Assembly (NCBI GenBank): GCA_964450065.1
Contig: CAYVGR010000001.1
Location: 1-54,483, forward strand
Reading direction: 5' to 3'
From: an uncultured Prevotella sp.
Lineage (GTDB): Bacteria; Bacteroidota; Bacteroidia; Bacteroidales; Bacteroidaceae
Length of the DNA: 54,483 nucleotides
Shown piece after piece: positions 2,210 to 42,754 of the stretch. The notes below the pieces were generated by a model. The model did not search any database. It saw only the letters and a list, made by a program, of their open reading frames with translations, and was not told the DNA's origin. How positions within the stretch are numbered: position 1 is the stretch's first letter; each line of letters starts with the position of its first letter. The position numbers were made by a program, and so were the translations under genes.

Positions 2210-3835
2210 ATGATGAAATATAGTTATGATGAAATATACGAGTTGTATATAAACCAAAATTTAACAGTTCGAGAAACCGAACAGAAGCTGAATATAGGAA
2301 AAGGGTCATTAGCATCATATTTAAGAAAGTATGATATTAAGAAACCCTCTTCCTTGATAGCTTTAAATAGACAAAAATCAGTTAGACAGAAGTACGGTGT
2401 AGATAATGTCTTTAAATTAGATACCGTACAAGATAAAATTAAAGCAACAACTTTAGAAAAATATGGAACGGAACATGCGATGCAATCCGAAGAAGTAAAA
2501 TCTAAACATAAAGAAATAATTCAACAAAGATATGGCGTAGATAACGTATTTAAATTACAATCTATCAGAGATAAAGCAAAAGAAACAATGCTAGATAAAT
2601 ATGCAGTAGAACATTCGATGCAATCTGATATATTACGCAGTAAAGTATTTAAAACAAATAAATCAAGATATGGGAATAAATCTTATTTAGGCTCGAAAGA
2701 AAATAGAGAACTATTAAAGACTAGAACAATTAGAGATAAAATAGAGCGCACAAATAAGAAAAGATATGGACATAAACATTATTTTAAAACTAAGCATTAT
2801 AAAGATATATTAACTAAAAGACATGGAACTTATAAGATCGGAAGATTAAAAATAGATGCAGAGATTAGAGATATCATCCATAACAAAGATAACTTAATCA
2901 AATGGATAAATGAGCAAGAGTTTAAAACTGTTAATTATTTAGCTAATAAATTAAGTTATGATAGAAATGCTTTATTAAATAAATGCAAAGAGTATAATAT
3001 TGAATATTTATTAGATTTTACAAAATCAACAGCGGAACAAGAGATCCGAGAGTATATAGAAAGTAAGGGCTTTAAAACAATATCAACAAGAACTATATTA
3101 GATGGAAAAGAGATAGACATATATATTCCAGACCTTAAATTAGGAATAGAATATAATGGAACTTATTGGCATCAAGTAGATTTTGTAGGTAAGAAGTACC
3201 ATCAAGAAAAATCGATACTTGCAGAAGAAAAAGGGATACAATTATACCATATATTTGAGTATGATTGAACAAATAGTGATAAGAAAGAAAGGATATTAAA
3301 TCAATTAAATAATTTATTGCATATAAATGATAGAAGAATATACGCAAGGCAATGTCAAGTAAAAGAGATAGGGTCAGAAGTATATGAGTTCTTAGATAAT
3401 AATCATATGCAAGGAAGAGATAGGTCAAGCGTAAAACTAGGTCTATATTATAAAGAAGAATTAGTATCAGTGATGACTTTCACTAAACCACGTTTCAATA
3501 AGAAATATGAATGGGAATTAAGTAGATTTGCAACAAAATCAAATATGAATGTTATAGGTGGAGCAAGTAAGCTATTTAAATATTTCATAAGACATAATAA
3601 AGGAAGTATAATAAGTTATTCAGATATAGCTAGAACTTCTGGAAAAGTATATGAAATATTAGGCTTTAAACAAACGCATATAACAACTCCTAATTATGTA
3701 TGGGTAAAGAACTCAGAAGTATTAAGTAGGTATCAAACACAGATGAGACAAGAAAAAGAAACAATGAGCGATAGAGGTTATATCCAAATATTCGATGCAG
3801 GAAATAAAGCATGAGAATATAGAACAGGAGAATAA
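2210..3835 (+). CDS. Free-standing Hef-like/Vsr-type putative homing endonuclease (code 4)
   Basis: YGVDNVF repeats, DIYIPDLKLGIEYNGTYWH, HIFEYD[W=TGA], ARQCQVKEI..FLDNNHMQG..WELSRFA..GGASKLF; joins two track ORFs across TGA 3266 and 3812. Confidence 0.8.
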
Positions 3836-3838
3836 AAC

Positions 3839-4063
3839 ATGGCACAAATTAATGTATCAGCAGTACCAGCAATAGTAACAATTAAAAACGAGTCAACAGA
3901 AACAAGATCAGTTCAGTTATACAGAGTAAACACTCAAGTAGCTATACCAGCAGGAGATGAATTAGTCTTACAAGTAAATAGCTCAAACGAGTTATTATTC
4001 TGGGTAGCAAAAGGAACAGAACATTTAACAGTTACTTTTGAAGCTGTTGAAGAAACAGAGTAG
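3839..4063 (+). CDS. Small beta-rich virion protein, possible head decoration protein
   Basis: AGGAG RBS; position after capsid gene; similar to the N-terminus of the next ORF. Confidence 0.5.
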   Translation: MAQINVSAVPAIVTIKNESTETRSVQLYRVNTQVAIPAGDELVLQVNSSNELLFWVAKGTEHLTVTFEAVEETE

Positions 4064-4107
4064 TCTATTATAAATAGGAAGCTATAGAGCAAAAATTTTA
4101 AACAAGT

Positions 4108-4200
4108 TATCAATAGCAGCAAGTTAAAATTCCTACCCTCCCTATGGTCTTGCTGCTTTGATATTAAATAAAGGGTAGGTAAAAACAGAATACAAGGGAG
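4108..4200 (+). ncRNA. Putative pseudoknotted cis-regulatory RNA
   Basis: Stem 4108-4123/4149-4163; loop CCTACCCT(4132-4139) complementary to AGGGTAGG(4172-4179); CTCCCT(4138-4143) complementary to RBS AGGGAG(4195-4200). Confidence 0.55.
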
Positions 4201-4211
4201 AACATTATAGA

Positions 4212-4637
4212 ATGTTAGCAGTAATAAAAGCATTAAAAGAAAATAAAATACAGATACATACAGGTGAAGAAGTACAGCTTGGAGTAAAAGATCAATTAAT
4301 AATAGGAATAGATTCATACTTAACACATTTCTATCTACAGAAACAATCTGACTCAATTCAAGTATCTTTTGAACCTGTTTTTTATCTAAACAAGTTACAA
4401 GATAAAAAAGTAACAACACAATCGGTTAAAGAAGTATTAACAGAAGAGGTTAAAACAGAAGAACCTAAAGAAGATACTATAGAGTTAGAGCAAGAAACTC
4501 AGAATATCGAAGAAAAAGAAGAGCAGAAAGCAGAAAAAGTAGAAAAACCACAACCGAAAAAAATAGAACCAAAAGAAAAACAAGAGAAGACAGAACCAAA
4601 AGAAAAACAGGAAAAAACAGATAGCAAGAAAGAGTAG
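4212..4637 (+). CDS. Paralog of 3839-4063 with a Glu/Lys-rich tail
   Basis: D-x-L..S..V-x-F-E pattern shared with upstream ORF; low-complexity C-terminus. Confidence 0.55.
   Translation: MLAVIKALKENKIQIHTGEEVQLGVKDQLIIGIDSYLTHFYLQKQSDSIQVSFEPVFYLNKLQDKKVTTQSVKEVLTEEVKTEEPKEDTIELEQETQNIEEKEEQKAEKVEKPQPKKIEPKEKQEKTEPKEKQEKTDSKKE
4566..4619 (+). repeat. 27-bp tandem duplication (EPKEKQEKT x2)
   Basis: gaaccaaaagaaaaacaagagaagaca / gaaccaaaagaaaaacaggaaaaaaca. Confidence 0.9.
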
Positions 4638-4661
4638 AAGTACACATCAGGTAGGTGAAGA

Positions 4662-5342
4662 ATGCGTATAGAAGAGTACAAAGAAGAGATATTATCTAAA
4701 CTTGGTGGAGATGTAGTAGAAGTTGAACTTGAAGAGGTAGGCGGTATCGAGAAACAGATTAATGCTGCTTTAAGAGAAACAGGTAGATATATAAATTTAG
4801 TACGATACGCAACATTACCTTATCACAAAGTAATAGATTTAAGCGATGTGGGTGTATCAGCAGTAACTTCCGTGATGCGAACTCAGGAACAAAACACAAC
4901 TACAGGAAATTTAGATCCAATCTATTTAGCAGCTACTTCATACAAAGGTGGATATAGAGATATGTCTGACTATAGATCGTATTTAAGAATGAGACAAATA
5001 AGAAATACATTACAAACAGATCTACAGTATGTATGGGATGCGAACACTAAAAAATTATATATAAATGCTGTTTTTCCACAACCTACGATGATAACTATAG
5101 GATATGTACCGCACTTCACGGACGTATCAGAAATATCAGATCCATACTGGACTGATATTATAATGAGATTATCATTAGCATTAACTAAAGAGGCATTAGG
5201 AAGAATAAGAGGTAAATATAAACTAAATAATGCATTATATGATATAGATTCAGATCAATTATTACAAGAAGCACAGCAAGAATTAACAACTTTAAGAGAG
5301 TACTTGCAACGAAACGCTAATCTTGTATTACCGATAGATTAA
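4662..5342 (+). CDS. Neck/head-tail adaptor protein (T4 gp13-like)
   Basis: ILSKLGG..VEVEL..QI..AL start and LALTKEALGRIRGKY..QLLQEAQQEL end resemble gp13-like proteins; synteny. Confidence 0.7.
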   Translation: MRIEEYKEEILSKLGGDVVEVELEEVGGIEKQINAALRETGRYINLVRYATLPYHKVIDLSDVGVSAVTSVMRTQEQNTTTGNLDPIYLAATSYKGGYRDMSDYRSYLRMRQIRNTLQTDLQYVWDANTKKLYINAVFPQPTMITIGYVPHFTDVSEISDPYWTDIIMRLSLALTKEALGRIRGKYKLNNALYDIDSDQLLQEAQQELTTLREYLQRNANLVLPID

Positions 5343-5361: not shown

Positions 5362-7041
5362 ATGCACAAACCACAAGACAATAATAGTCTAATGAACTTT
5401 TTGAAAGAGTCTAGAGCTCTTAAAGAAGCAGAATACGAAGTAGTGGACGATGAATTGGTGACTATAACAGAGCCTGTAGAGGATGGAGAAGAGTTAGAAG
5501 CTCACCCAGGTGAAGAAATAGAGCCAATTATAGATCCCGAATTAGGATTAGACAGCGATATAGATGAAGAAGAAGTTAAAAATAAATCATATATAGGAAA
5601 GAAAGTATCAGTATGTGAGGTATGCGGCACAGTGTTCTTCGCAGATACAGATAACGTGGAAGAACTAGAATGTCCAGTATGCTACACTTCAGGGGATGAT
5701 CTAACAATAGTTGGAGTTGTTAAACCAGCAGATGAAGAAACAGATGAAGACGAAGAAGAAATGACAGATGATGACTTCGGACCTGACATAGATGAATTAG
5801 ACTCACCTGAAATAACAGATACAGAAGACATAGACGTAGAACTAGAAGATGAACTATTAGAAGAAAATAAAAAAAGAAGAGTAAGCGGTAGAAGAAATAG
5901 AAGATTATCAGAAATGTCTAACATGGAAAAACTAAAGAGAGCTTATCCAGAGTTAAATATCTCAAATCTACCAGAAGGGCGTAAAAAAAAAGTAAAAAAT
6001 AGAAAAATGCTTGAGCAGAGACAGTATAGAGAATATACATATCCATATCAAGTAGAATCACATGATTACTGAGAAGACGAACCAGATAATGTTATATGGG
6101 ATGATCCTACGCATGCAGATGACAACTATTATGGTTGGAAATTAATAACAAGCGAGGCATTAGTTACTCAAAATTATGATGAAGATGCAGGCAAGTATTA
6201 TGAGGTAAGTTGAGCAGGCGCAGATGATTATTATGAAGTAAGTACTTTAAAAGAAGCTAAAGAGTTAGTGAGAAAGTATTATGAGGCCTATGAAGATCTA
6301 TATAGAAATTTTAAATGGATAAAAGCAACACCATCTTTAACTACTGAAAGCAATAAAAGAAGAGTAAGCGGTAGAAAAAATATTTTAGAATCAGATGAAA
6401 ATGAAGAATTAGATTGGCATTGAGATTGAGAAGAACATCCGTTACAAGACTTACATAATGAAGCTATGGACAGATTAGATATATGACCAGAGCCTTCTAT
6501 ACAAGGAGATCAGGGAGGAATGGCTTATTATACAAATAAAGGAGATGATACCTTTGCTTGATTTGATTATCAAGATGAAGTCCAATTTATGAACGATCTA
6601 ACAGATTCATATACAGATATAGAAAGTAATAGAGAAGAAATAATTCAAGAGATAATCCAGTTTATAGTAAGCAAAAAAGATGATCTATATGAAAGTAGAA
6701 TTAACCGAAAAAGAAGAGTAAGAGGCAGAAGAAATGGTAGATCATCAGAAATGTCTAACATGGAAAAACTACAGAGAGCTTATCCAGATTATGATCTTCT
6801 AAACAAAGTACATGAAAACCAAGAATCGGATCAAGGTAGAATCGATACAGCACAACTATCTAAAGAAGCTAAGAAAGTTATTGAAGATTCAATATGAGAC
6901 TCATATGAATATGGGACAGGACCACATGAGGACGATATTTATTACATATTAGACGAATTAGATGAGCTAGGAATACCTTACAAAGTTGATCAAGTTAAGA
7001 AATATTGGCAAGAGTTCTACGATAGTAATGAATATAGATAA
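5362..7041 (+). CDS. 559-aa acidic modular protein with Zn ribbon and repeated basic linkers (code 4); possible processed internal head protein
   Basis: Open through 7 TGA codons to TAA 7039; CEVCG..CPVC; three KRRV(S/R)GR linkers. Confidence 0.7.
5869..6789 (+). repeat. Dispersed ~80-bp intragenic direct repeats (copies ~5869-5950 and ~6708-6789, partial copy ~6353-6380)
   Basis: aaaaagaagagtaag..gg.agaagaaat...agat.atcagaaatgtctaacatggaaaaacta.agagagcttatccaga. Confidence 0.9.
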
Positions 7042-35904: not shown

Positions 35905-38280
35905 ATGAGTAAAAAATCTTTAATAGGATTACCTACAAGAAGGAACACAGAAGCATTAAAAATTAATGCATTATCTGCGACTAAAAAAAGAAAATCATTT
36001 AAATCAAATTCCATTCTAGATAAAATAAACGAAATATCTACAACAGTGCGTGCTTATTTAGGGAAGTACGCAAAAGATATTGAAGTTATACGAGATATAG
36101 ATACTTTTAATAAATATATAGACAAAGCTATAGAAAAAGGATATCTAGCGATAGATACCGAAACAGATGGGTTAGATGTAATTAATGATAAGATAGTAGG
36201 ATTATGCTTTTATGTTCCTGGACATAAGGCAGCTTATGTACCAGTAAGACATAAGAGTTATATAACAGGGACATATTTACCTAATCAGTTAAGTATTACG
36301 AATATAAAACCAGGATTAGATAGAATAAAAGAAAACAAAGTTAAAATAGTATACCATCACGGTAAATTTGATATGCGAGTAATATATAATAACTTTAAAG
36401 TAAAGTTAGGATGTTATTGAGATACTATGATCGGAGCAAAGATTATAAATCAGAACGAATCTGCTGCTTTAAAATTTCAACATGCTAAGTATGTAAACGA
36501 TGCGGAAAAAGAGTACGACTTTGGAACATTATTTAGAGGAATAGATTATAAATTAGTACCGATTGAAGTAGCAGCACTGTACGCAGCTTCAGATCCATTG
36601 ATAACATGGGAATTGCATGAACACCAAAAAAAGGTATTCAATCAACCTGGTAATGAGAATATGTATAAACTATTCAGAGATATAGAAACACCTTTAGTAG
36701 AAGTAGTAACAGATATGGAGAATACTGGGATTAGGTTTGATTTCGAATTAGCAGAAAGATTATCTAACAAGTATCATAAATTATTAGATAAAGCAGAAAA
36801 AGCAGTATATGCAGAAATTGATAAATATTCAGATCAGATAAGAACTTATAAAATAATGAATCCAGACCATAAACTATCAGATCCAATATTATTATCATCA
36901 CCAGCTCAATTAGCAACATTATTTTATGACATATTAAAATTAGAGTCACCAGATAGTAGAAAACCAAGAGGAACCGGCGAGGATATAATCAAAGGATTAA
37001 ACCTACCGATGGCATCAGCATTATTAGAGTATAGGGGAATACAGAAACTATTAACTACTTATATAGACAAGTTACCTAACTCAGCTAATAAAGCTACAGG
37101 AAGAATCCATGCATCATTTAATCAAGTGGGAGCAGATACTGGAAGATTTAGTAGCAGTGATCCTAATTTACAGAACATACCTTCTTATAATAAAGAAATA
37201 AGACTATTATTTAGAGCAAGTGAGGGACATAAATTAGTAGCATCTGACTTCTCTCAACAGGAACCTAGAGTATTAGCACATTTCAGTGGAGATGAGCATA
37301 TGATAGATGCATATAATAAAGGACAGGATTTATATGCAACAGTAGCTTCTAGAATATATGGTAGACCATATAATGAATGCTTAGCTAGATATCCAGATGG
37401 GTCACCAAATCCAGAAGGAGCGAGATTAAGAGAGAATACAAAATCTATTGTATTAGGACTAATGTATGGAAGAGGACCTAGATCTATAGCAGAGCAGACT
37501 GGCCAGACGTTAGAAGAAGCACAGCAAACAATTAATACATTCTATCAAGGATTTCCTAAAGTGAGGCAGTGGATGGATGATACAGTCACATTTGCAAAAA
37601 AATATGGATACGCTGAAACATTATGGGGAAGAAGAAGATACATACCAGACATTCAGTTAAAGAAATATGAGCTTACTTTAGAATCAGGTAATAGACCAGT
37701 TAATTTTAATCCTTTATTTGGATTTGAAACAGTTAAAGATGATAGTCAAGAGAAGTTAGAGTACTTTGAAACAGCTTTAAATAACGCGAGATACTTCAAC
37801 GATAGGATCAGATTGAAACAAGAAGCAGAAAATAATGGTATAAAAGTAAAAGACAATAATGGGTTTATAGCAGAGGGAGAAAGACAAGCAGTTAATAGTA
37901 GGATACAAGGAAGCTCTGCAGATATGTCAAAAAGAGCTATGTTACTAATAGCTAAAGATGAAAGAATGAAAGAAATGGGATTCAGATTACTTTTAGCTGT
38001 ACATGATGAGTTAATTGGAGAAGTCCCAGAAGAGCATGCAGAAGAAGCAGCTCAAAGGTTAAGTGATCTAATGATAGAGTCAGCTTTACCAGAATGCTCT
38101 GTAGCAATGAAGTGTGATGCAGAGATAACAAGATGTTGGTATGAAGGCGATTATATCAACTATATAAGAGACGAATATAAGAAGAGTAATGATATAGAAG
38201 AAGTTATTTATAATCACGAAGAAATAGACAGAGAAATAATAATAGATATACTTCAAAATAATAGAAATACTTTATTTTAA
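35905..38280 (+). CDS. polA: Family A DNA polymerase with 3'-5' exonuclease (code 4)
   Basis: DTETDGL, KFD, Y[W]DTMI, TGRFSSSDPNLQNIP, DFSQQEPR, KSIVLGLMYG, IQGSSAD, VHDEL. Confidence 0.95.
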
Positions 38281-38283
38281 AAA

Positions 38284-38320
38284 TATAGAGTTTAGTAGAT
38301 AACCTCTATAAAAAAACTAC
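38284..38320 (+). promoter_or_regulatory. preQ1 class I riboswitch aptamer
   Basis: P1 TATAGAG/CTCTATA, loop UUUAGUAGAUAAC, A-tract, then CUAC pairing with loop GUAG; same architecture as the B. subtilis queC aptamer; upstream of yhhQ. Confidence 0.8.
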
Positions 38321-38352
38321 TTAAGTATATATTTAGCTATCGAATATATACA

Positions 38353-38398
38353 GCGGAGTTCGATCTCGAAATCCTCCGCAAATAAAAAAAATAAGGAG
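38353..38398 (+). promoter_or_regulatory. Second preQ1-I-like aptamer overlapping the yhhQ RBS
   Basis: P1 GCGGAG/CTCCGC, loop UUCG..AUC, A-tract ending in UAAGGAG. Confidence 0.55.
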
Positions 38399-38405
38399 AA
38401 TTTAC

Positions 38406-39215
38406 ATGGGTAAATTAAAAAACTTTCTGAAAAGAAAAATAGAAGAGAAAAAATTATCTCTTTCACAATTAACAACAGCTAGCATATTATTAGGTATGGT
38501 AGCAATATATATTACAAGCGTAATATTATATAATATTTTCGAATACAAGTTTTTCGAATTCACAACATTGGGATGGAGTATATTAGGTAATCCAATAATA
38601 ATAGGAATGGGAGCAGGGACACTAATATCTTGGATATCCTTCTTATTAATGGACGTTATTACGGAAGTATGGGGGAAGAAAAAAGCAATTAGCATATTTA
38701 CAATGGCGATGATTATTAGTGTAGTAACATCATTATTTGGATTGATAATAGTTAACGTGGGAACAGATTCTTACGGAAGTGCTATTGAGCTTATTTTCGG
38801 CACGCATATAAGAGTAACCTTAGCTTCAGCTTTTGCTTTTTGGGTAGGTAACTACGTAAATGCAGTAATAATGCACGTGATGAAAGTAAGAGCAGAAGAT
38901 CAGGGCGAAGGGTATAATGGAAAATTATTCGCACTAAGAGCTACAACATCAACATTATTTGGACAGTTTGTAGACAACGCACTATTCCAGATTTTAGGCT
39001 TAGCACCTTTTGGGGTAGGGTATATGTTAGCATCACCTTTTGGGTGGACATGGGGAATGGTATTTGGATCAATTATAGTAGGAACAATATTAGAGTTTTT
39101 GTTAGAAGCTGTATTAGTTCCACTAGTGACTATACCTTTATCTAATGTATTGAAAAGAAAGAAAGAAAAAGAAGATAATGATAACTTCTTACAACCGCAA
39201 ATAGAAACTGAATAA
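38406..39215 (+). CDS. yhhQ: Queuosine precursor transporter (YhhQ/VUT family)
   Basis: FLLMDVITEVWGKKKA, R..LAS..AF..G..N, R...ST..GQ.VD..LF; multiple TM helices. Confidence 0.9.
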   Translation: MGKLKNFLKRKIEEKKLSLSQLTTASILLGMVAIYITSVILYNIFEYKFFEFTTLGWSILGNPIIIGMGAGTLISWISFLLMDVITEVWGKKKAISIFTMAMIISVVTSLFGLIIVNVGTDSYGSAIELIFGTHIRVTLASAFAFWVGNYVNAVIMHVMKVRAEDQGEGYNGKLFALRATTSTLFGQFVDNALFQILGLAPFGVGYMLASPFGWTWGMVFGSIIVGTILEFLLEAVLVPLVTIPLSNVLKRKKEKEDNDNFLQPQIETE

Positions 39216-39229
39216 GAGAGAAAAAGATA

Positions 39230-39874
39230 ATGAAAATATTAATAACAGGAACAAGCTTAGGTATAGGCAAAGGTATAGCAGATAAATTTCTAGAGCAGGG
39301 ACATAAAGTATACGGAATTGATAGATTAGATAGCACTATCGATAACGATAATTATGTACATATCAAACAAGATATAAGATCTAAAGATTTACCGGAGTTA
39401 CCAGATATAGATATACTTATAAACAATGCAGGAACTCAAAACGAAGATGATATAGATATCAACTTAAGAGGAACTATAAATATAACAGAGAAATATGGAA
39501 TACATTCCAATATAAAATCAATTTTATTTATAGCTTCAGCTTCAGCTCAAACAGGAGCAGAGTTTCCAGAATATGCAGCAAGTAAAGGCGGAATGGTTGC
39601 TTATATGAAAAATGTAGCATTAAGAATAGCGGAATATGGAGCTACATCTAATAGCTTATCTCCAGGTGGGGTAACTACAGATTTAAATAAACATATTATC
39701 GAAACACCTGAATTGTGGGAATCAGTTATGTCAGAAACATTACTACCTAAATGGGCGAATGTAGAAGAGATAGCAGAATGGGCATATTTTACAACCGTTA
39801 TTAATAAATCAATGACTGCTCAAGATATTCTTATAGATAATGGAGAAGCAGCCAAATCTAATTTTATTTGGTAA
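39230..39874 (+). CDS. Short-chain dehydrogenase/reductase
   Basis: TGTSLGIG, NNAG, S..YAASK, SPGGV.T. Confidence 0.92.
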   Translation: MKILITGTSLGIGKGIADKFLEQGHKVYGIDRLDSTIDNDNYVHIKQDIRSKDLPELPDIDILINNAGTQNEDDIDINLRGTINITEKYGIHSNIKSILFIASASAQTGAEFPEYAASKGGMVAYMKNVALRIAEYGATSNSLSPGGVTTDLNKHIIETPELWESVMSETLLPKWANVEEIAEWAYFTTVINKSMTAQDILIDNGEAAKSNFIW

Positions 39875-39880
39875 TGGTAG

Positions 39881-39907
39881 AGGGCAGAGATAAGATCTCT
39901 GTCTTTT
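39881..39907 (+). terminator. Intrinsic terminator-like hairpin after SDR
   Basis: AGGGCAGAGA-TAAGA-TCTCTGTCTTTT. Confidence 0.6.
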
Positions 39908-39934
39908 ACTTAATAAAGAACAAAGGAGAAATAA

Positions 39935-40165
39935 ATGTTACCGTACTTAGGATATATAGCATCAGTAGTAGTTTTAATATCATTTATACTAAAGGACATT
40001 ATATGGATTAGAGCAGTTAATTTTATAGGCTGCGTATTATTTGTATTATATGGTATTTTCTTTTTAGGGGATATGGCTACAGTTTTCCTGAATTCCAGTG
40101 TTGGGATTATTCAGGTATATTATATAGCAACAATTTTAAACAAAAAACAAAATAAAGAGGAATAG
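39935..40165 (+). CDS. Small 3-TM membrane protein (YgjV-like)
   Basis: GYIASVVVLISF.LK....IR.VN.IG..LF..YG. Confidence 0.7.
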   Translation: MLPYLGYIASVVVLISFILKDIIWIRAVNFIGCVLFVLYGIFFLGDMATVFLNSSVGIIQVYYIATILNKKQNKEE

Positions 40166-40618
40166 ATGTATAAGATAGAATTTGCAAAAGAAAGCGATTT
40201 CGATAAAATATATGCTTTATTTGGAAAGAATACAGACCTACTAGGACGACCATTTCCTGCTGCTATTAGAGAAGCTCTAAAATTAAATAAAGTTTTAATA
40301 GTACGTGGAGAAGAGCAAGACTCTTGCTTCGGCTTCTGTAATTTTAATGTACTTAAAAGAGAGTTTAGGACGACAGTATATGAGATAGCAGTAGATGAAG
40401 CAGCTAGAGGGCATGGACTAGGGCGTAGAATGATTGAATTCTTAGAGGAAAAATATAAGAGACCTATTCAAGCTAAATGCGTTAAAGGCTCACCTGCTGA
40501 GCTCTTTTGGGAGAGAGTGGCAGAGTTAATAAAATATGAAAAAGGCAAGAAAAGAGAACTATCAGTTTTCTTAACAAAGAAGTATAGAAAAGAGATAAAG
40601 AAAAGGAGTTTGATATAA
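40166..40618 (+). CDS. GNAT acetyltransferase
   Basis: IAVDEAARGHGLGRRM acetyl-CoA-binding motif; A..FW. Confidence 0.88.
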   Translation: MYKIEFAKESDFDKIYALFGKNTDLLGRPFPAAIREALKLNKVLIVRGEEQDSCFGFCNFNVLKREFRTTVYEIAVDEAARGHGLGRRMIEFLEEKYKRPIQAKCVKGSPAELFWERVAELIKYEKGKKRELSVFLTKKYRKEIKKRSLI

Positions 40619-41544
40619 TGATAGATTTATATTTTGCAGGATCTGGAACTAAGGAAGCAGCAGATAGAATTAGGGAAAGAAATTGCAATCAATTATTAAG
40701 TCAGCTGAATGAGCGTAAAAAAGTATTAGAATGGGTTCAATATTTAAAAGATAACCCACAATGTACAAGTAAATTATTTATAGATTCAGGAGCATTCTCA
40801 GCACATACAAAAGGAAAAGAAGTAGACGTAGATGAATATATAGAGCTTTTAAATGAGATAGATGAACAAGTATATATATTTGCTCAAGTTGATAAGATAC
40901 CAGGGGAGTTTGGAAAACCAAAAACAAGAGAGCAATTAGAAGATGCTCCGAGAGAGTCATGGGAAAATTACTTATATATGAAAGATAGGGTAAAATCAAG
41001 AGATAAATTGTTACCAGTATTCCACCAAGGGGAAGATTTCAAGTGGTTAGAGAATATGCTAGAGTATAGACATGAGGATGGATCACCTATATGGTATATA
41101 GGAATTTCACCAGCTAATGATGTATCAACAACCATGAAAGCAAAATGGCTACAGAAAGTTTTCAGGACAATTAAATATTCAAGCAACCCAGGAGTAAAAA
41201 CACATTCCTTTGGAATGACATCATTACACTTATTAGAAACATTCCCATTCACTTCAGCAGACTCAACAAGTTGGATATTAACTGGAGCAAATGGAAGTAT
41301 TATGACTAAATATGGAACAGTAACTGTTTCAGATAGGCAATTACAAAGACCTGAGCATATATATAATAAATCAACTCAATTACAGAATGTGATTAGAGAC
41401 GCAGTGCTAGAAACAGGATATGATTTAGACGATCTAGTTAAAGATGGAAATAAGAGAACTCTATATCATGTAGATTATTTAAAAGACTGGTGTGATTCTT
41501 ACCAATTTAAAGGATTAAATACATATAAAAAATCATTAATATAA
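40618..41544 (+). CDS. TGT-fold base-exchange enzyme (DpdA-like candidate)
   Basis: LYFAG, FIDSGAFS, D.IPG, LPVFHQGE, HSFG, SADSTSW. Confidence 0.75.
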   Translation: MIDLYFAGSGTKEAADRIRERNCNQLLSQLNERKKVLEWVQYLKDNPQCTSKLFIDSGAFSAHTKGKEVDVDEYIELLNEIDEQVYIFAQVDKIPGEFGKPKTREQLEDAPRESWENYLYMKDRVKSRDKLLPVFHQGEDFKWLENMLEYRHEDGSPIWYIGISPANDVSTTMKAKWLQKVFRTIKYSSNPGVKTHSFGMTSLHLLETFPFTSADSTSWILTGANGSIMTKYGTVTVSDRQLQRPEHIYNKSTQLQNVIRDAVLETGYDLDDLVKDGNKRTLYHVDYLKDWCDSYQFKGLNTYKKSLI

Positions 41545-41557
41545 AGGAAGATAAAAT

Positions 41558-42754
41558 ATGAAAGTAATATTAAATACAGATAAATTTAAAAATCTTACAG
41601 GAAGGGTAGTAAAAGGGGCAGGTAATCAAAACGATGCTTTAATTACATCATCTGTAACAGTGGAAGTAAAAGATAAAACATTATCATTAATGACAACTGC
41701 AGGTAATCATACAATGAAAGTATGGTTAAATGATGCAACAAAAGAAGAAGTAAATTTCGCAACAAGTTTGAATGCGGATAAATTAACAAGATTGACAAGA
41801 TTAACAACAGTAGATAAGATTACATTATTTAGCAAAGATGAGGATATTATATTCGAAGGAAATGGGGTATATACATTAGCACAACTATTAGATGAGGAAG
41901 GAAACTTAGCTAGAGTACCAGAATTAGAATATGATGAAGATACATTAGAATTAGAGTTAACTGTACCTACAAAGATATTGAAAAAAGCCCTAAACTTTAA
42001 TAAATTAAGTGTAGGATTAAACGTAGATGTAGCAAGTTATGGATCAGCATATTACCTTACCAATGAGCATGTATTGACATATGATGATGTCACATCCGTT
42101 ATGACAAAAGGTAAAATGACAGATAAACCATTTAAGTTGTTGATTAATTCAGAGGTTATGGATCTTATCGAAAACATACAATCAGAGAACACAAAGATTA
42201 AAGTATATAAGAATGTAGTTAAATTTATCGGAGATGATATTGAACTAACAGCTTTGGTTAATGATAGAGTTAGCTTATTCCCAGAGGAAGCATTATTAAA
42301 TACATATTCAAGTGATTACGATTATTTATTTACAGTAAGTAGATCAGATATATTAGAAGCATTAGATAGGTTATCGATATTCTTAGAAATTGGTGAAAAG
42401 AATAAAATTACAATGATATTCAATGATGATCAATTATTACTAAGCTCTAATAGTAAGACAGGGAATGAGATGCTATACTCTAAAGAAGTAATAGCTTCCG
42501 AAAACCCATATATACAAGCAGTAGATTTACTAGACTTAAAAAGACATATCACATCACACTCAGGTGAGACTATTAAACTAAGATATGGTAATGATAGAGG
42601 GTTATTAATAGAGAATAATGAAGTTACTCATCTATTACCTTACTACGATTCAGAGGAAGATGAAGAAGATATAAATATTGATATAGAAGAAAGAGAAGAA
42701 AGCACCTTACCAGAAGAGTATATGGAAGATACTATTCCATTTGAAATTAATTAA
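41558..42754 (+). CDS. dnaN: DNA sliding clamp (DnaN/beta-like) with acidic tail
   Basis: Three-domain beta-clamp pattern: MKVILN..VEVKDKTLSL.T; FTVSRSDILEALDRLS; HLLP. Confidence 0.8.
   Translation: MKVILNTDKFKNLTGRVVKGAGNQNDALITSSVTVEVKDKTLSLMTTAGNHTMKVWLNDATKEEVNFATSLNADKLTRLTRLTTVDKITLFSKDEDIIFEGNGVYTLAQLLDEEGNLARVPELEYDEDTLELELTVPTKILKKALNFNKLSVGLNVDVASYGSAYYLTNEHVLTYDDVTSVMTKGKMTDKPFKLLINSEVMDLIENIQSENTKIKVYKNVVKFIGDDIELTALVNDRVSLFPEEALLNTYSSDYDYLFTVSRSDILEALDRLSIFLEIGEKNKITMIFNDDQLLLSSNSKTGNEMLYSKEVIASENPYIQAVDLLDLKRHITSHSGETIKLRYGNDRGLLIENNEVTHLLPYYDSEEDEEDINIDIEEREESTLPEEYMEDTIPFEIN

What the first reader, a model, noticed from the sequence alone, without database searches (positions are those of the whole stretch)
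38284..41544. Salvage-fed 7-deazaguanine DNA-modification cassette: riboswitches, yhhQ, SDR, YgjV-like, GNAT, TGT-fold
Seen: five genes inserted between polA and dnaN, with a Q-precursor transporter at one end and a TGT-fold enzyme (DSGAFS, PVFH, HSFG, SADSTSW) translationally coupled to a GNAT at the other. No folE/queD/queE/queC/queF occurs in the window. Known: phage DpdA enzymes swap G in DNA for preQ0/preQ1 to resist restriction, and N-methyl and N-formyl dPreQ1 have been described. Inference: this phage imports the base rather than making it, and the GNAT acylates the preQ1 amine, giving an N-acetyl-dPreQ1-type base that I do not know to be described in DNA.
Basis: partly seen in the sequence, partly recalled or inferred. 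Interest (0 to 1): 0.9.

Follow-up and report, generated by a model that had tools for sequence, protein, structure and literature searches.

The report
Phage salvage cassette for acetylated guanine
A phage carries five genes between its DNA polymerase and clamp genes that likely import a queuosine-type base from outside, likely convert it to the base preQ1, likely swap it for guanine in the phage DNA and probably cap it with an acetyl group, which would be a DNA base not yet measured.

Summary
The five ORFs, the motifs and the GNAT/dpdA overlap are there, and no preQ0 synthesis gene lies in this 54 kb, which is an incomplete, TGA-recoded phage contig. The TGT-like protein is 49% identical to the DpdA of phage Dp-1, whose DNA carries dPreQ1, and does not align to a tRNA Tgt. 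The GNAT sits directly before dpdA in 3 of 86 related loci, in the slot that a DpdM-like gene usually fills. Distant relatives are fused to DpdA4 (9 of 25 long hits). It shares a C-terminal basic-LF/LI tag with DNA-modifying enzymes. N-acylated dPreQ1 is the best reading (about 0.55); no chemistry was tested. yhhQ-SDR is a bacterial operon behind a preQ1-like motif (50 of 73 loci). In phages it alternates with QueL or QueF, so the SDR is a candidate queuine-to-preQ1 enzyme. The genome-profile support is weak (P 0.03; tgt co-occurrence uninformative). The two riboswitch-like hairpins fit a strict motif but fail Rfam's cut-off. The scan already noted the GNAT and SDR ideas, and a similar cassette, on other DNA. 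New variant of a known kind.

The parts
38284..38321 (+). preQ1-I-like hairpin 1: 7-bp stem, 13-nt loop ending in AC, A-rich tail; loop AGUAG can pair with CUACU at 38317-38321
   Evidence: no RF00522 hit
38325..38351 (+). AT-rich spacer hairpin (10-bp stem) between the two aptamer-like elements; role unknown
   Evidence: predicted fold
38353..38400 (+). preQ1-I-like hairpin 2: 6-bp stem, UUCG...AUC loop; loop UCUC can pair with GAGA (38396-38399) in the Shine-Dalgarno of yhhQ, a likely translational off-switch
   Evidence: RF00522 18.4 bits, E 0.15, below cut-off
38406..39215 (+). QPTR/YhhQ (Vut_1) queuosine-precursor transporter
   Evidence: PF02592 E 2e-26; TIGR00697 52.6 bits against cut-off 50.95
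39230..39874 (+). Classical SDR of an unnamed family coupled to yhhQ; NAD-type Asp31; Ser103/Tyr115/Lys119; candidate queuine-to-preQ1 salvage enzyme
39935..40165 (+). 76-aa membrane protein, YgjV-like through relatives; found in 9 of 86 other dpdA loci, always inside the deazaguanine cluster; likely a transport accessory
40166..40618 (+). GNAT acyltransferase (pI 9.6), candidate dPreQ1 N-acetyltransferase; stop overlaps the dpdA start
40598..40615 (+). C-terminal KKRSLI tag of the GNAT, shared in type with DpdA, DpdM-like proteins and DNA methylases of these phages; possible clamp-binding motif (resemblance recalled, binding untested)
40618..41544 (+). Phage DpdA (Dp-1-like), predicted DNA guanine transglycosylase; ends in KKSLI (41527-41541)
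35905..38280 (+). DNA polymerase A, left flank; one 791-aa gene when TGA is read as Trp
41558..42754 (+). DnaN-like sliding clamp, right flank

Best explanation
The cassette likely supplies preQ1 by salvage, likely inserts it in place of guanine in the phage DNA through its Dp-1-like DpdA, and probably acetylates the free aminomethyl group with the GNAT, which would give N-acetyl-dPreQ1 (+42 Da). Steps: (1) YhhQ, perhaps with the small membrane protein, imports a queuosine-family base, most likely queuine (family shown, substrate inferred). (2) The NAD-type SDR is predicted to oxidise a hydroxyl of queuine's cyclopentenediol, so that the amine is eliminated as preQ1, doing QueL's job without radical SAM chemistry (inferred, about 0.4). 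(3) The two preQ1-I-like hairpins would lower expression when preQ1 is plentiful (motif shown, binding inferred). (4) DpdA exchanges G for preQ1 after replication (about 0.8, from Dp-1). (5) The GNAT acylates the amine on the DNA, as DpdM methylates it and PaMx11 gp48 acetylates 5-aminomethyl-dU (about 0.6 for acylation, 0.5 for acetyl). The shared C-terminal tag may bring both enzymes to the phage clamp (about 0.4). The likely purpose is escape from restriction.
For: DpdA: 49% identity over the full length to Dp-1 gp7; Dp-1 DNA holds 3389 dPreQ1 per million nucleotides (PMC6884629). D56, D92, H196 and D215 are invariant in 15 of 15. No alignment to a bacterial tRNA Tgt. GNAT: directly upstream of dpdA in the window and in 3 of 86 other loci (L136, L137, L186). 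A CxxCxxCC DpdM-like gene flanks dpdA in 15 others (upstream in 14), never together with the GNAT. L108/L136 has the GNAT with folE-queDEC-queF, a complete route to preQ1; L137 and L186 have yhhQ. The GNAT was not seen in any locus with queCDE but no queF. Of the 25 profile hits of 195 aa or more, 9 are fused to DUF6610, which is DpdA4 (bioRxiv 2023.04.13.536721); 1 of the 20 scanned against PHROGs is fused to a phrog_887 domain. C-terminal tag: DpdA 80 of 94 ORFs, DpdM-like 13 of 15, GNAT 3 of 4, methylases 10 of 11; 0 of 40 QueC, 38 QueD, 38 QueE, 35 FolE, 13 QueF, 36 YhhQ, 12 SDR and 68 DnaN. Precedent: gp48 (PMC8989533). SDR: a yhhQ homolog lies beside it in 73 of 80 bacterial loci, with a preQ1-like motif upstream in 50 of those 73. 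Related phages carry QueL (E 4e-42 to PDB 6P78) plus QueT in the same slot (5 of 86). None of the 11 SDR phage loci has QueL or QueF. In 300 genomes of one class, SDR (19), QueL (24) and QueF (25) never co-occur; QueL was found in 0 of 50 SDR genomes. One SDR abuts queK-qrtT (L239). Asp31 is invariant in 90 of 90, and there is no conserved Cys.
Against: Nothing chemical was tested. Only 3 other GNAT loci were found (L109 is the L001 phage again), so exclusion from DpdM is not significant (about 0.7 overlaps expected). The fused relatives are distant (E 1e-15 to 4e-10), a level at which GNATs with no other Pfam domain also score; 12 of the 25 long hits show only GNAT domains. The tag pattern was written after seeing the ends; only 23 of 153 GNAT homologs carry it, and polA has it in 1 of 96 ORFs, fragments included. 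The window's nearest DpdAs (L138, L181, L211) sit with QueC or QueF-L rather than salvage genes, so its base specificity is not fixed by kinship. tgt in 50 of 50 SDR genomes is uninformative, since 295 of 300 controls have it. 232 of 300 genomes have none of SDR, QueL or QueF; exclusion gives P 0.03 pooled and 0.19/0.18 singly, ignoring kinship. 6 of 50 SDR genomes have a QueF hit, 3 of them strong. Both hairpins fail Rfam's cut-off and my own model. Pfam DpdA scores only E 0.013. The contig is incomplete.
Confidence: 0.55

Rival explanations
1. Ordinary dPreQ1 (or dPreQ0) cassette: DpdA inserts the salvaged base, and the GNAT is a passenger that acetylates a host or phage protein.
For: Phage GNATs that modify host proteins are common (PMC7824862 passages). 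Fold matches are generic amine and protein acetyltransferases at <=18% identity. Most related dpdA loci (83 of 86) lack the GNAT.
Against: Found only directly before dpdA in all 4 distinct loci; fused to DpdA4 in 9 of 25 long hits; carries the C-terminal tag of the DNA-modifying enzymes.
Confidence: 0.22
2. The GNAT acylates free preQ1 before insertion, or adds an acyl group other than acetyl (or acylates another base, as Mom does adenine).
For: GNAT fold does not fix the acyl donor. Mom-family GNATs acylate adenine (PMC7824862). DpdN is described as a preQ1 or dPreQ1 formylase. Two long hits are ParB fusions.
Against: The tag is absent from all small-molecule enzymes of these loci, and the protein is basic (pI 9.6), which favours DNA as substrate. 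The coupling is to dpdA and preQ1 sources.
Confidence: 0.13
3. The SDR is not a queuine-cleaving enzyme: it reduces preQ0 (a QueF analogue) or acts on another 7-substituted base. The DNA steps are unchanged.
For: yhhQ-queF pairs exist in the same slot (L007/L142) and in the bin's own C38. SDR is as exclusive of QueF as of QueL in the 300 genomes. E. coli-type YhhQ carries preQ0/preQ1 (PMC11625349).
Against: Invariant NAD-type Asp31 and no conserved Cys, whereas QueF is NADPH-dependent and uses a Cys thioimide (recalled). One SDR abuts queK, which releases queuine. 3 of 50 SDR genomes have a strong QueF hit.
Confidence: 0.25
4. The TGT-like protein modifies tRNA, and the cassette boosts host queuosine rather than modifying DNA.
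For: Record annotations say 'queuine tRNA-ribosyltransferase'; the yhhQ-SDR operon serves tRNA Q synthesis in bacteria.
Against: No alignment to bacterial Tgt (probability 0.2%); 49% identity to the Dp-1 protein; phage DpdAs cluster apart from TGTs (PMC6884629 section 9); position between polA and dnaN; no tRNA gene in the window.
Confidence: 0.05

Closest known systems
dPreQ1 cluster of Streptococcus phage Dp-1 (queF, queC, queD, queE, folE, queT, dpdA; NC_015274)
   Same: DpdA 49% identical; cluster just upstream of dnaN; includes a Q-precursor transporter.
   Different: No synthesis genes here; YhhQ instead of QueT; added SDR, small membrane protein, GNAT and two preQ1-like hairpins; TGA-recoded genome.
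DpdM (dPreQ1 N-methyltransferase, validated) and DpdN (predicted formyltransferase), bioRxiv 2023.04.13.536721
   Same: Tailoring of the preQ1 amine beside dpdA; DpdM-like genes fill the same slot in 14 of 86 relatives.
   Different: GNAT fold, unrelated to either; the product would be N-acetyl. 'acetyl' and 'GNAT' occur 0 times in that preprint's main text.
PaMx11 gp48, 5-aminomethyl-dU N-acetyltransferase (PMC8989533)
   Same: Phage GNAT that acetylates an aminomethyl group on a base within DNA, +42 Da.
   Different: Acts on a pyrimidine made from glycinyl-thymine; no sequence match to PaMx11 at E<=0.01 in the phage collection.
QueL queuine lyase of the indirect queuine salvage route (queK-ECF-queL; PDB 6P78)
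   Same: Proposed role of the SDR; same genetic setting: behind a preQ1-like motif, beside a transporter, in the same phage slot.
   Different: QueL is a radical SAM enzyme; this is an NAD-type SDR with no demonstrated activity.
preQ1-I riboswitch (RF00522)
   Same: Short stem closed by G-C, U...C loop, A-rich tail, possible pseudoknot with the Shine-Dalgarno, upstream of yhhQ.
   Different: Below the gathering score; two copies in tandem; in a phage. 'phage' occurs 0 times in the 2024 review PMC11625349.

Membership tests
Phage DpdA (Dp-1/9g type) | Full-length homology to DpdA of phages with measured 7-deazaguanine DNA | tested here: met
   49% to Dp-1 gp7; about 31% to coliphage '7-deazaguanosine inserting enzyme'
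Phage DpdA (Dp-1/9g type) | Conserved transglycosylase Asp/His motifs | tested here: met
   D56, D92, H136, H196, D215 invariant in 15 of 15; their catalytic roles are recalled, not tested
Phage DpdA (Dp-1/9g type) | Pfam PF23859 (DpdA) over its cut-off | tested here: inconclusive
   14.9 bits against 27; only 2 of 15 clade members hit at all, so the model seems not to cover this clade; the Dp-1 protein was not scanned
Phage DpdA (Dp-1/9g type) | TGT-type TIM-barrel fold | not tested
   Both folding jobs went to the SDR and the GNAT; no PDB sequence match
Phage DpdA (Dp-1/9g type) | 7-deazaguanine in phage DNA | not testable with these tools
   Needs LC-MS/MS
Bacterial tRNA-guanine transglycosylase (Tgt) | Sequence similarity to Tgt / TIGR00430 | tested here: not met
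   No NCBIfam hit; no TIGR00430 match in the assembly; profile against one Tgt, probability 0.2%
GNAT acyltransferases | GNAT profile, fold and acyl-CoA motif (R-G-x-G-x-G) | tested here: met
   PF00583 over cut-off; model pLDDT 93.4, TM about 0.75 to GNATs; R81 nearly invariant
DpdM / DpdN preQ1-amine tailoring enzymes | CxxxCxxCC metal motif (DpdM) or PurN-like formyltransferase (DpdN) | tested here: not met
   GNAT fold instead; no DpdM match in the window. It may work like them but is not a member
QPTR/YhhQ transporters | PF02592 and TIGR00697 over cut-off | tested here: met
QPTR/YhhQ transporters | Transported base (preQ0, preQ1, q or Q) | not testable with these tools
   Divergent: at most 37% identical to any fetched homolog
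QueL queuine lyase | Radical SAM protein homologous to PDB 6P78 | tested here: not met
   The SDR has a Rossmann fold; no QueL match in the window
QueF nitrile reductase | T-fold, PF14489, catalytic Cys | tested here: not met
   No PF14489 hit; the window SDR has no Cys and the family no conserved Cys
preQ1-I riboswitch (RF00522) | Rfam gathering score | tested here: not met
   18.4 bits against 39 for hairpin 2, no hit for hairpin 1; relatives' leaders also missed it in 20 of 20 loci scanned
preQ1-I riboswitch (RF00522) | P1 stem, U...C loop, A-rich tail, pseudoknot potential, upstream of a Q-precursor gene | tested here: met
   motif recalled and written after seeing the leader, then checked on 13 of 13 Rfam hits
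preQ1-I riboswitch (RF00522) | preQ1 binding and switching | not testable with these tools
   Needs in-line probing or ITC
Beta-clamp-binding motif | Binding of the C-terminal peptide to the clamp | tested here: inconclusive
   Complex prediction gave no answer; motif distribution only

The most novel reading that the evidence does not exclude
This phage runs a riboswitch-regulated route from dietary or microbial queuine to a new DNA base. An NAD-dependent SDR cleaves queuine to preQ1 by oxidation and elimination, a third preQ1-making chemistry beside QueF and QueL and present in about 6% of sampled Clostridia-class genomes. DpdA and the GNAT then ride the phage's own sliding clamp through a shared C-terminal tag to write N-acetyl-preQ1 into newly made DNA.
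Probability: 0.2. Interest if true: 0.88.

Novelty: new variant of a known kind. Interest (0 to 1): 0.66.

Why it matters
It makes two open items directly testable with small soluble proteins in E. coli. The first is a further 7-deazaguanine DNA base (N-acetyl-dPreQ1) with an enzyme that could label amine-bearing bases in DNA. The second is a missing queuine-salvage enzyme, in a large, unnamed SDR family of gut bacteria (7,843 of 8,000 scored candidates at E<=1e-30), which bears on competition for the micronutrient queuine. The tag that separates DNA-acting from small-molecule enzymes gives a way to predict other tailoring enzymes in the same slot. The kind of system (phage Dpd modification against restriction) is known.

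Tried and rejected
(1) tgt/queA co-occurrence (50 of 50 each) as evidence for the SDR: rejected, tgt is in 295 of 300 controls; no queA control was run. (2) TIGR04100, recalled as QueL: wrong; its hits sit by TatD or a TIGR04002-like gene and do not match 6P78. (3) Own covariance model R1 on the window: not significant. The covariation is partly circular, because the 38 sequences were chosen by the stem motif and by eye from 64 candidates. (4) GNAT with DnaN complex prediction: no answer, score 0.01; no evidence either way. (5) SDR single-protein scan of viral contigs found nothing, although tblastn shows it in 9 of 24 loci, so these pattern scans miss relatives. The same limit applies to the GNAT scans (2 viral loci; 1 metagenome locus). 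The 52-row GNAT alignment was too divergent to scan, so the context of most homologs is unknown. (6) DpdA tree: quick tree only, 58 rows; Dp-1 and several others were dropped by my motif filter. The GNAT needs 2 changes, but one origin is not excluded. (7) Restriction-site depletion: only GCGC 0.62 and CGCG 0.74 on small counts; uninformative. (8) No RNA holder listed. (9) Fold searches name no close solved relative of the SDR (<=29%) or the GNAT (<=18%). (10) TAG read-through rejected (coverage 0.89 against 0.96 for TGA). (11) The protein atlas did not complete. (12) Yuan 2019 (PMC6754566) and the 2024 review (PMC10966956) are not held.
Full report
What the window is. It is the whole contig C1 of a fragmented bin; at 30% GC against a median of 47% it is probably a phage contig binned with another organism. 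It holds baseplate-like and replication genes and begins inside the structural region, so it is incomplete. Many genes look broken under the standard code. Reading TGA as Trp raises long-ORF coverage from 0.83 to 0.96, and relatives have Trp at 101 of 130 aligned TGA positions. The five cassette genes use 19 TGG and no TGA, against 61 TGG and 62 TGA elsewhere (naive P 2e-6), but the neighbouring ssb, dnaN and recA genes also lack TGA. This fits recent acquisition or expression under the standard code; I cannot tell which. Recoded phages of standard-code hosts are known (bioRxiv 2021.08.26.457843; listing and start of abstract only).

Observation. All five ORFs, the named motifs and the one-base GNAT/dpdA overlap are present. 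No synthesis or other salvage gene matches the window. A contig of run X1 (possibly the source) spans the cassette unchanged, and a second study holds 93-99% alike pieces across two gene junctions.

The transglycosylase. It is 49% identical over its length to Dp-1 gp7 and 50% to a Bacillus phage Flasso protein that lies in a cluster with folE and queCDEF. Dp-1 DNA contains dPreQ1, and a dpdA deletion removes the modification in phage CAjan (PMC6884629, passages and section 9). It does not align to a bacterial Tgt. Pfam's DpdA model scores below cut-off and barely sees this clade; the fold was not modelled. Phages with dpdA and yhhQ but no synthesis genes are already described in that paper, so 'salvage-fed DpdA' alone is not new.

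The GNAT. I analysed 86 dpdA loci besides the window: 80 (the best of 419), 4 more, Dp-1 and Flasso. Many are near-copies and some are cut by contig ends. The GNAT occurs in 3 (L136, L137, L186), each time between polA and dpdA. A CxxCxxCC protein, DpdM-like by motif (PF03692; motif as in bioRxiv 2023.04.13.536721, passages), flanks dpdA in 15, never with the GNAT; numbers are too small for significance. L136 (=L108) pairs the GNAT with a full route to preQ1 including QueF. A profile search gave 801 hits at E<=0.001, of which 150 were listed. Of the 25 listed at 195 aa or more, 9 carry DUF6610 (DpdA4), 2 ParB and 1 a weak QueC-like region; of 20 scanned against PHROGs, 1 carries a phrog_887 domain. 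The other 12 show only GNAT domains, and these hits are distant. The model is a confident GNAT fold with no close solved relative. PaMx11 gp48 shows that a phage GNAT can acetylate an aminomethyl group on a DNA base (PMC8989533, passages).

A shared tag. GNAT (KKRSLI) and DpdA (KKSLI) end alike. A basic-L[F/I/W] ending is found on DpdA (80 of 94 ORFs), DpdM-like proteins (13 of 15), GNAT (3 of 4) and two methylase clusters (6 of 6, 4 of 5). It is found on none of the QueC, QueD, QueE, FolE, QueF, QueL, QueT, YhhQ, SDR, DnaN or ssb ORFs (first pass 8 of 408 background). This groups the GNAT with DNA-acting enzymes. It recalls clamp-binding motifs (QL[S/D]LF, from memory; one homolog ends QLSLFKEN), and these phages encode a clamp. 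The pattern is post hoc, only 23 of 153 GNAT homologs have it, and polA mostly lacks it. One paper search listed general clamp papers, and no title or abstract start among the 15 shown links DpdA to a clamp.

The SDR. Its best 80 of 264 bacterial relatives are 61-77% identical; 73 of 80 have a yhhQ homolog beside them with otherwise unrelated flanks, and 50 of those 73 have a preQ1-I-like motif upstream. In an unselected class sample 19 of 300 genomes carry it. I fetched the 17 not already seen: 15 show yhhQ adjacent, one has yhhQ with the SDR ORF missed by my caller, and one (L239) abuts queK and an ECF gene tail to tail. In phages the slot holds alternative preQ1 supplies: de novo synthesis, yhhQ plus queF, QueT plus QueL (5 loci; E 4e-42 to 6P78), or yhhQ plus SDR (11 loci, 7 with DpdM-like genes, whose substrate is the preQ1 amine). 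SDR, QueL (24 of 300) and QueF (25 of 300) never share a genome in the sample, and QueL was not found with this query in 50 SDR genomes. The statistics are weak (P 0.03 pooled); 232 of 300 have none of the three; the 50 include incomplete assemblies; and tgt co-occurrence proved uninformative. The invariant Asp31 points to NAD (rule recalled), favouring oxidation. Oxidising queuine's allylic hydroxyl would allow elimination of the amine, by analogy to NAD-dependent glycosidases; this chemistry is my inference.

The leader. Two hairpins fit a strict preQ1-I motif. They are the only hits in the window, against 0.275 expected per 54 kb, and 0 of 20,000 leader shuffles give two. The same motif recovers 13 of 13 RF00522 hits and marks yhhQ, queL or que-operon leaders in 7 of 86 related phage loci, with 11 further hits inside genes or elsewhere. 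Both can form a pseudoknot, the second with the Shine-Dalgarno. Rfam and my own model do not reach significance, so they are 'preQ1-like', not filed as members.

The small membrane protein clusters with YgjV-like proteins found in 9 of 86 loci, always among deazaguanine genes, with or without synthesis genes. A transport accessory role is a guess.

In print. Searches (acetyl or GNAT with preQ1, DpdA or deazaguanine; SDR with queuine salvage) listed nothing that describes N-acetyl-dPreQ1 or this SDR. Passages were read in PMC11130926 (0 hits for dehydrogenase or SDR; supplement head rows only), PMC11625349, PMC7824862 and bioRxiv 2026.10.19.760177; none makes these claims. The 2024 review and Yuan 2019 were not available, and I did not see the supplements of the 2023 preprint, whose gene tables may list such neighbours. 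Earlier notes of this scan reach the same two ideas on other DNA; they are not independent evidence.

Verdict. A real, coherent variant of the phage Dpd system with two candidate new enzymes. Confidence 0.55 for salvage plus amine acylation, about 0.4 for the queuine-cleaving SDR. Interest 0.66.

Noticed in passing
window 1-54483: The phage reads TGA as Trp (coverage 0.83 to 0.96; Trp in relatives at 101 of 130 sites), including in polA, helicase and primase; no tRNA gene in the contig. The cassette is TGA-free (19 TGG, 0 TGA). L181/L182 also gain coverage when TGA is read through.
   Followed up: partly
L160, L162, L165, L184 about 2614-4919; L163 1469-2816: Phages with QueL plus QueT plus dpdA, three of them behind a preQ1-like motif; four also carry an LPG_synthase_C (aminoacyl-transferase-like) gene (E 7e-8), a candidate for aminoacylated preQ1. 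It lacks the C-terminal tag.
   Followed up: partly
L145, L176, L177, L194, L196, L210, just after dpdA (about 5909-6760): A SAM-dependent methyltransferase with the C-terminal tag, in loci with folE-queD-queE but no queC (L210 is cut short): candidate for a methylated 7-carboxy-7-deazaguanine.
   Followed up: no
L150 5001-6578, L151 5001-6584 (also L157, L158, L179, L185): DpdA fused to a QueF-like C-terminal part (about 525 aa).
   Followed up: no
L138/L139 2494-5924; L019 5578-8933: The window's closest DpdAs (52-60%) sit with a small membrane gene, a short QueF-L-like gene, yhhQ behind a preQ1-like motif, a divergent QueC and sometimes a HAD gene; product unclear.
   Followed up: no
L026 1534-1570 (Bacillus phage Flasso): preQ1-I-like motif ahead of the que operon of a cultured phage that has a 50% identical DpdA; a practical test case.
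   Followed up: no
L173 6656-7201, L177 4263-4778: Unannotated proteins of about 170-180 aa with the C-terminal tag inside dpdA loci; candidate DNA-acting partners.
   Followed up: no
G000 contig C38 12004-13153: The bin's main organism has its own yhhQ-queF pair, but no tgt was found in this 80% complete bin.
   Followed up: partly
class sample of 300 genomes: Tgt scores against TIGR00430 look bimodal (about 1e-150 and 1e-172); most SDR carriers are in the lower group. Possibly two Tgt subtypes; not analysed.
   Followed up: no
window 38280 and 43248 (gene ends): The window's polA (NRNTLF) and, under TGA=Trp, its RecU-like gene (ENKKLF) also end in the basic-LF tag.
   Followed up: no
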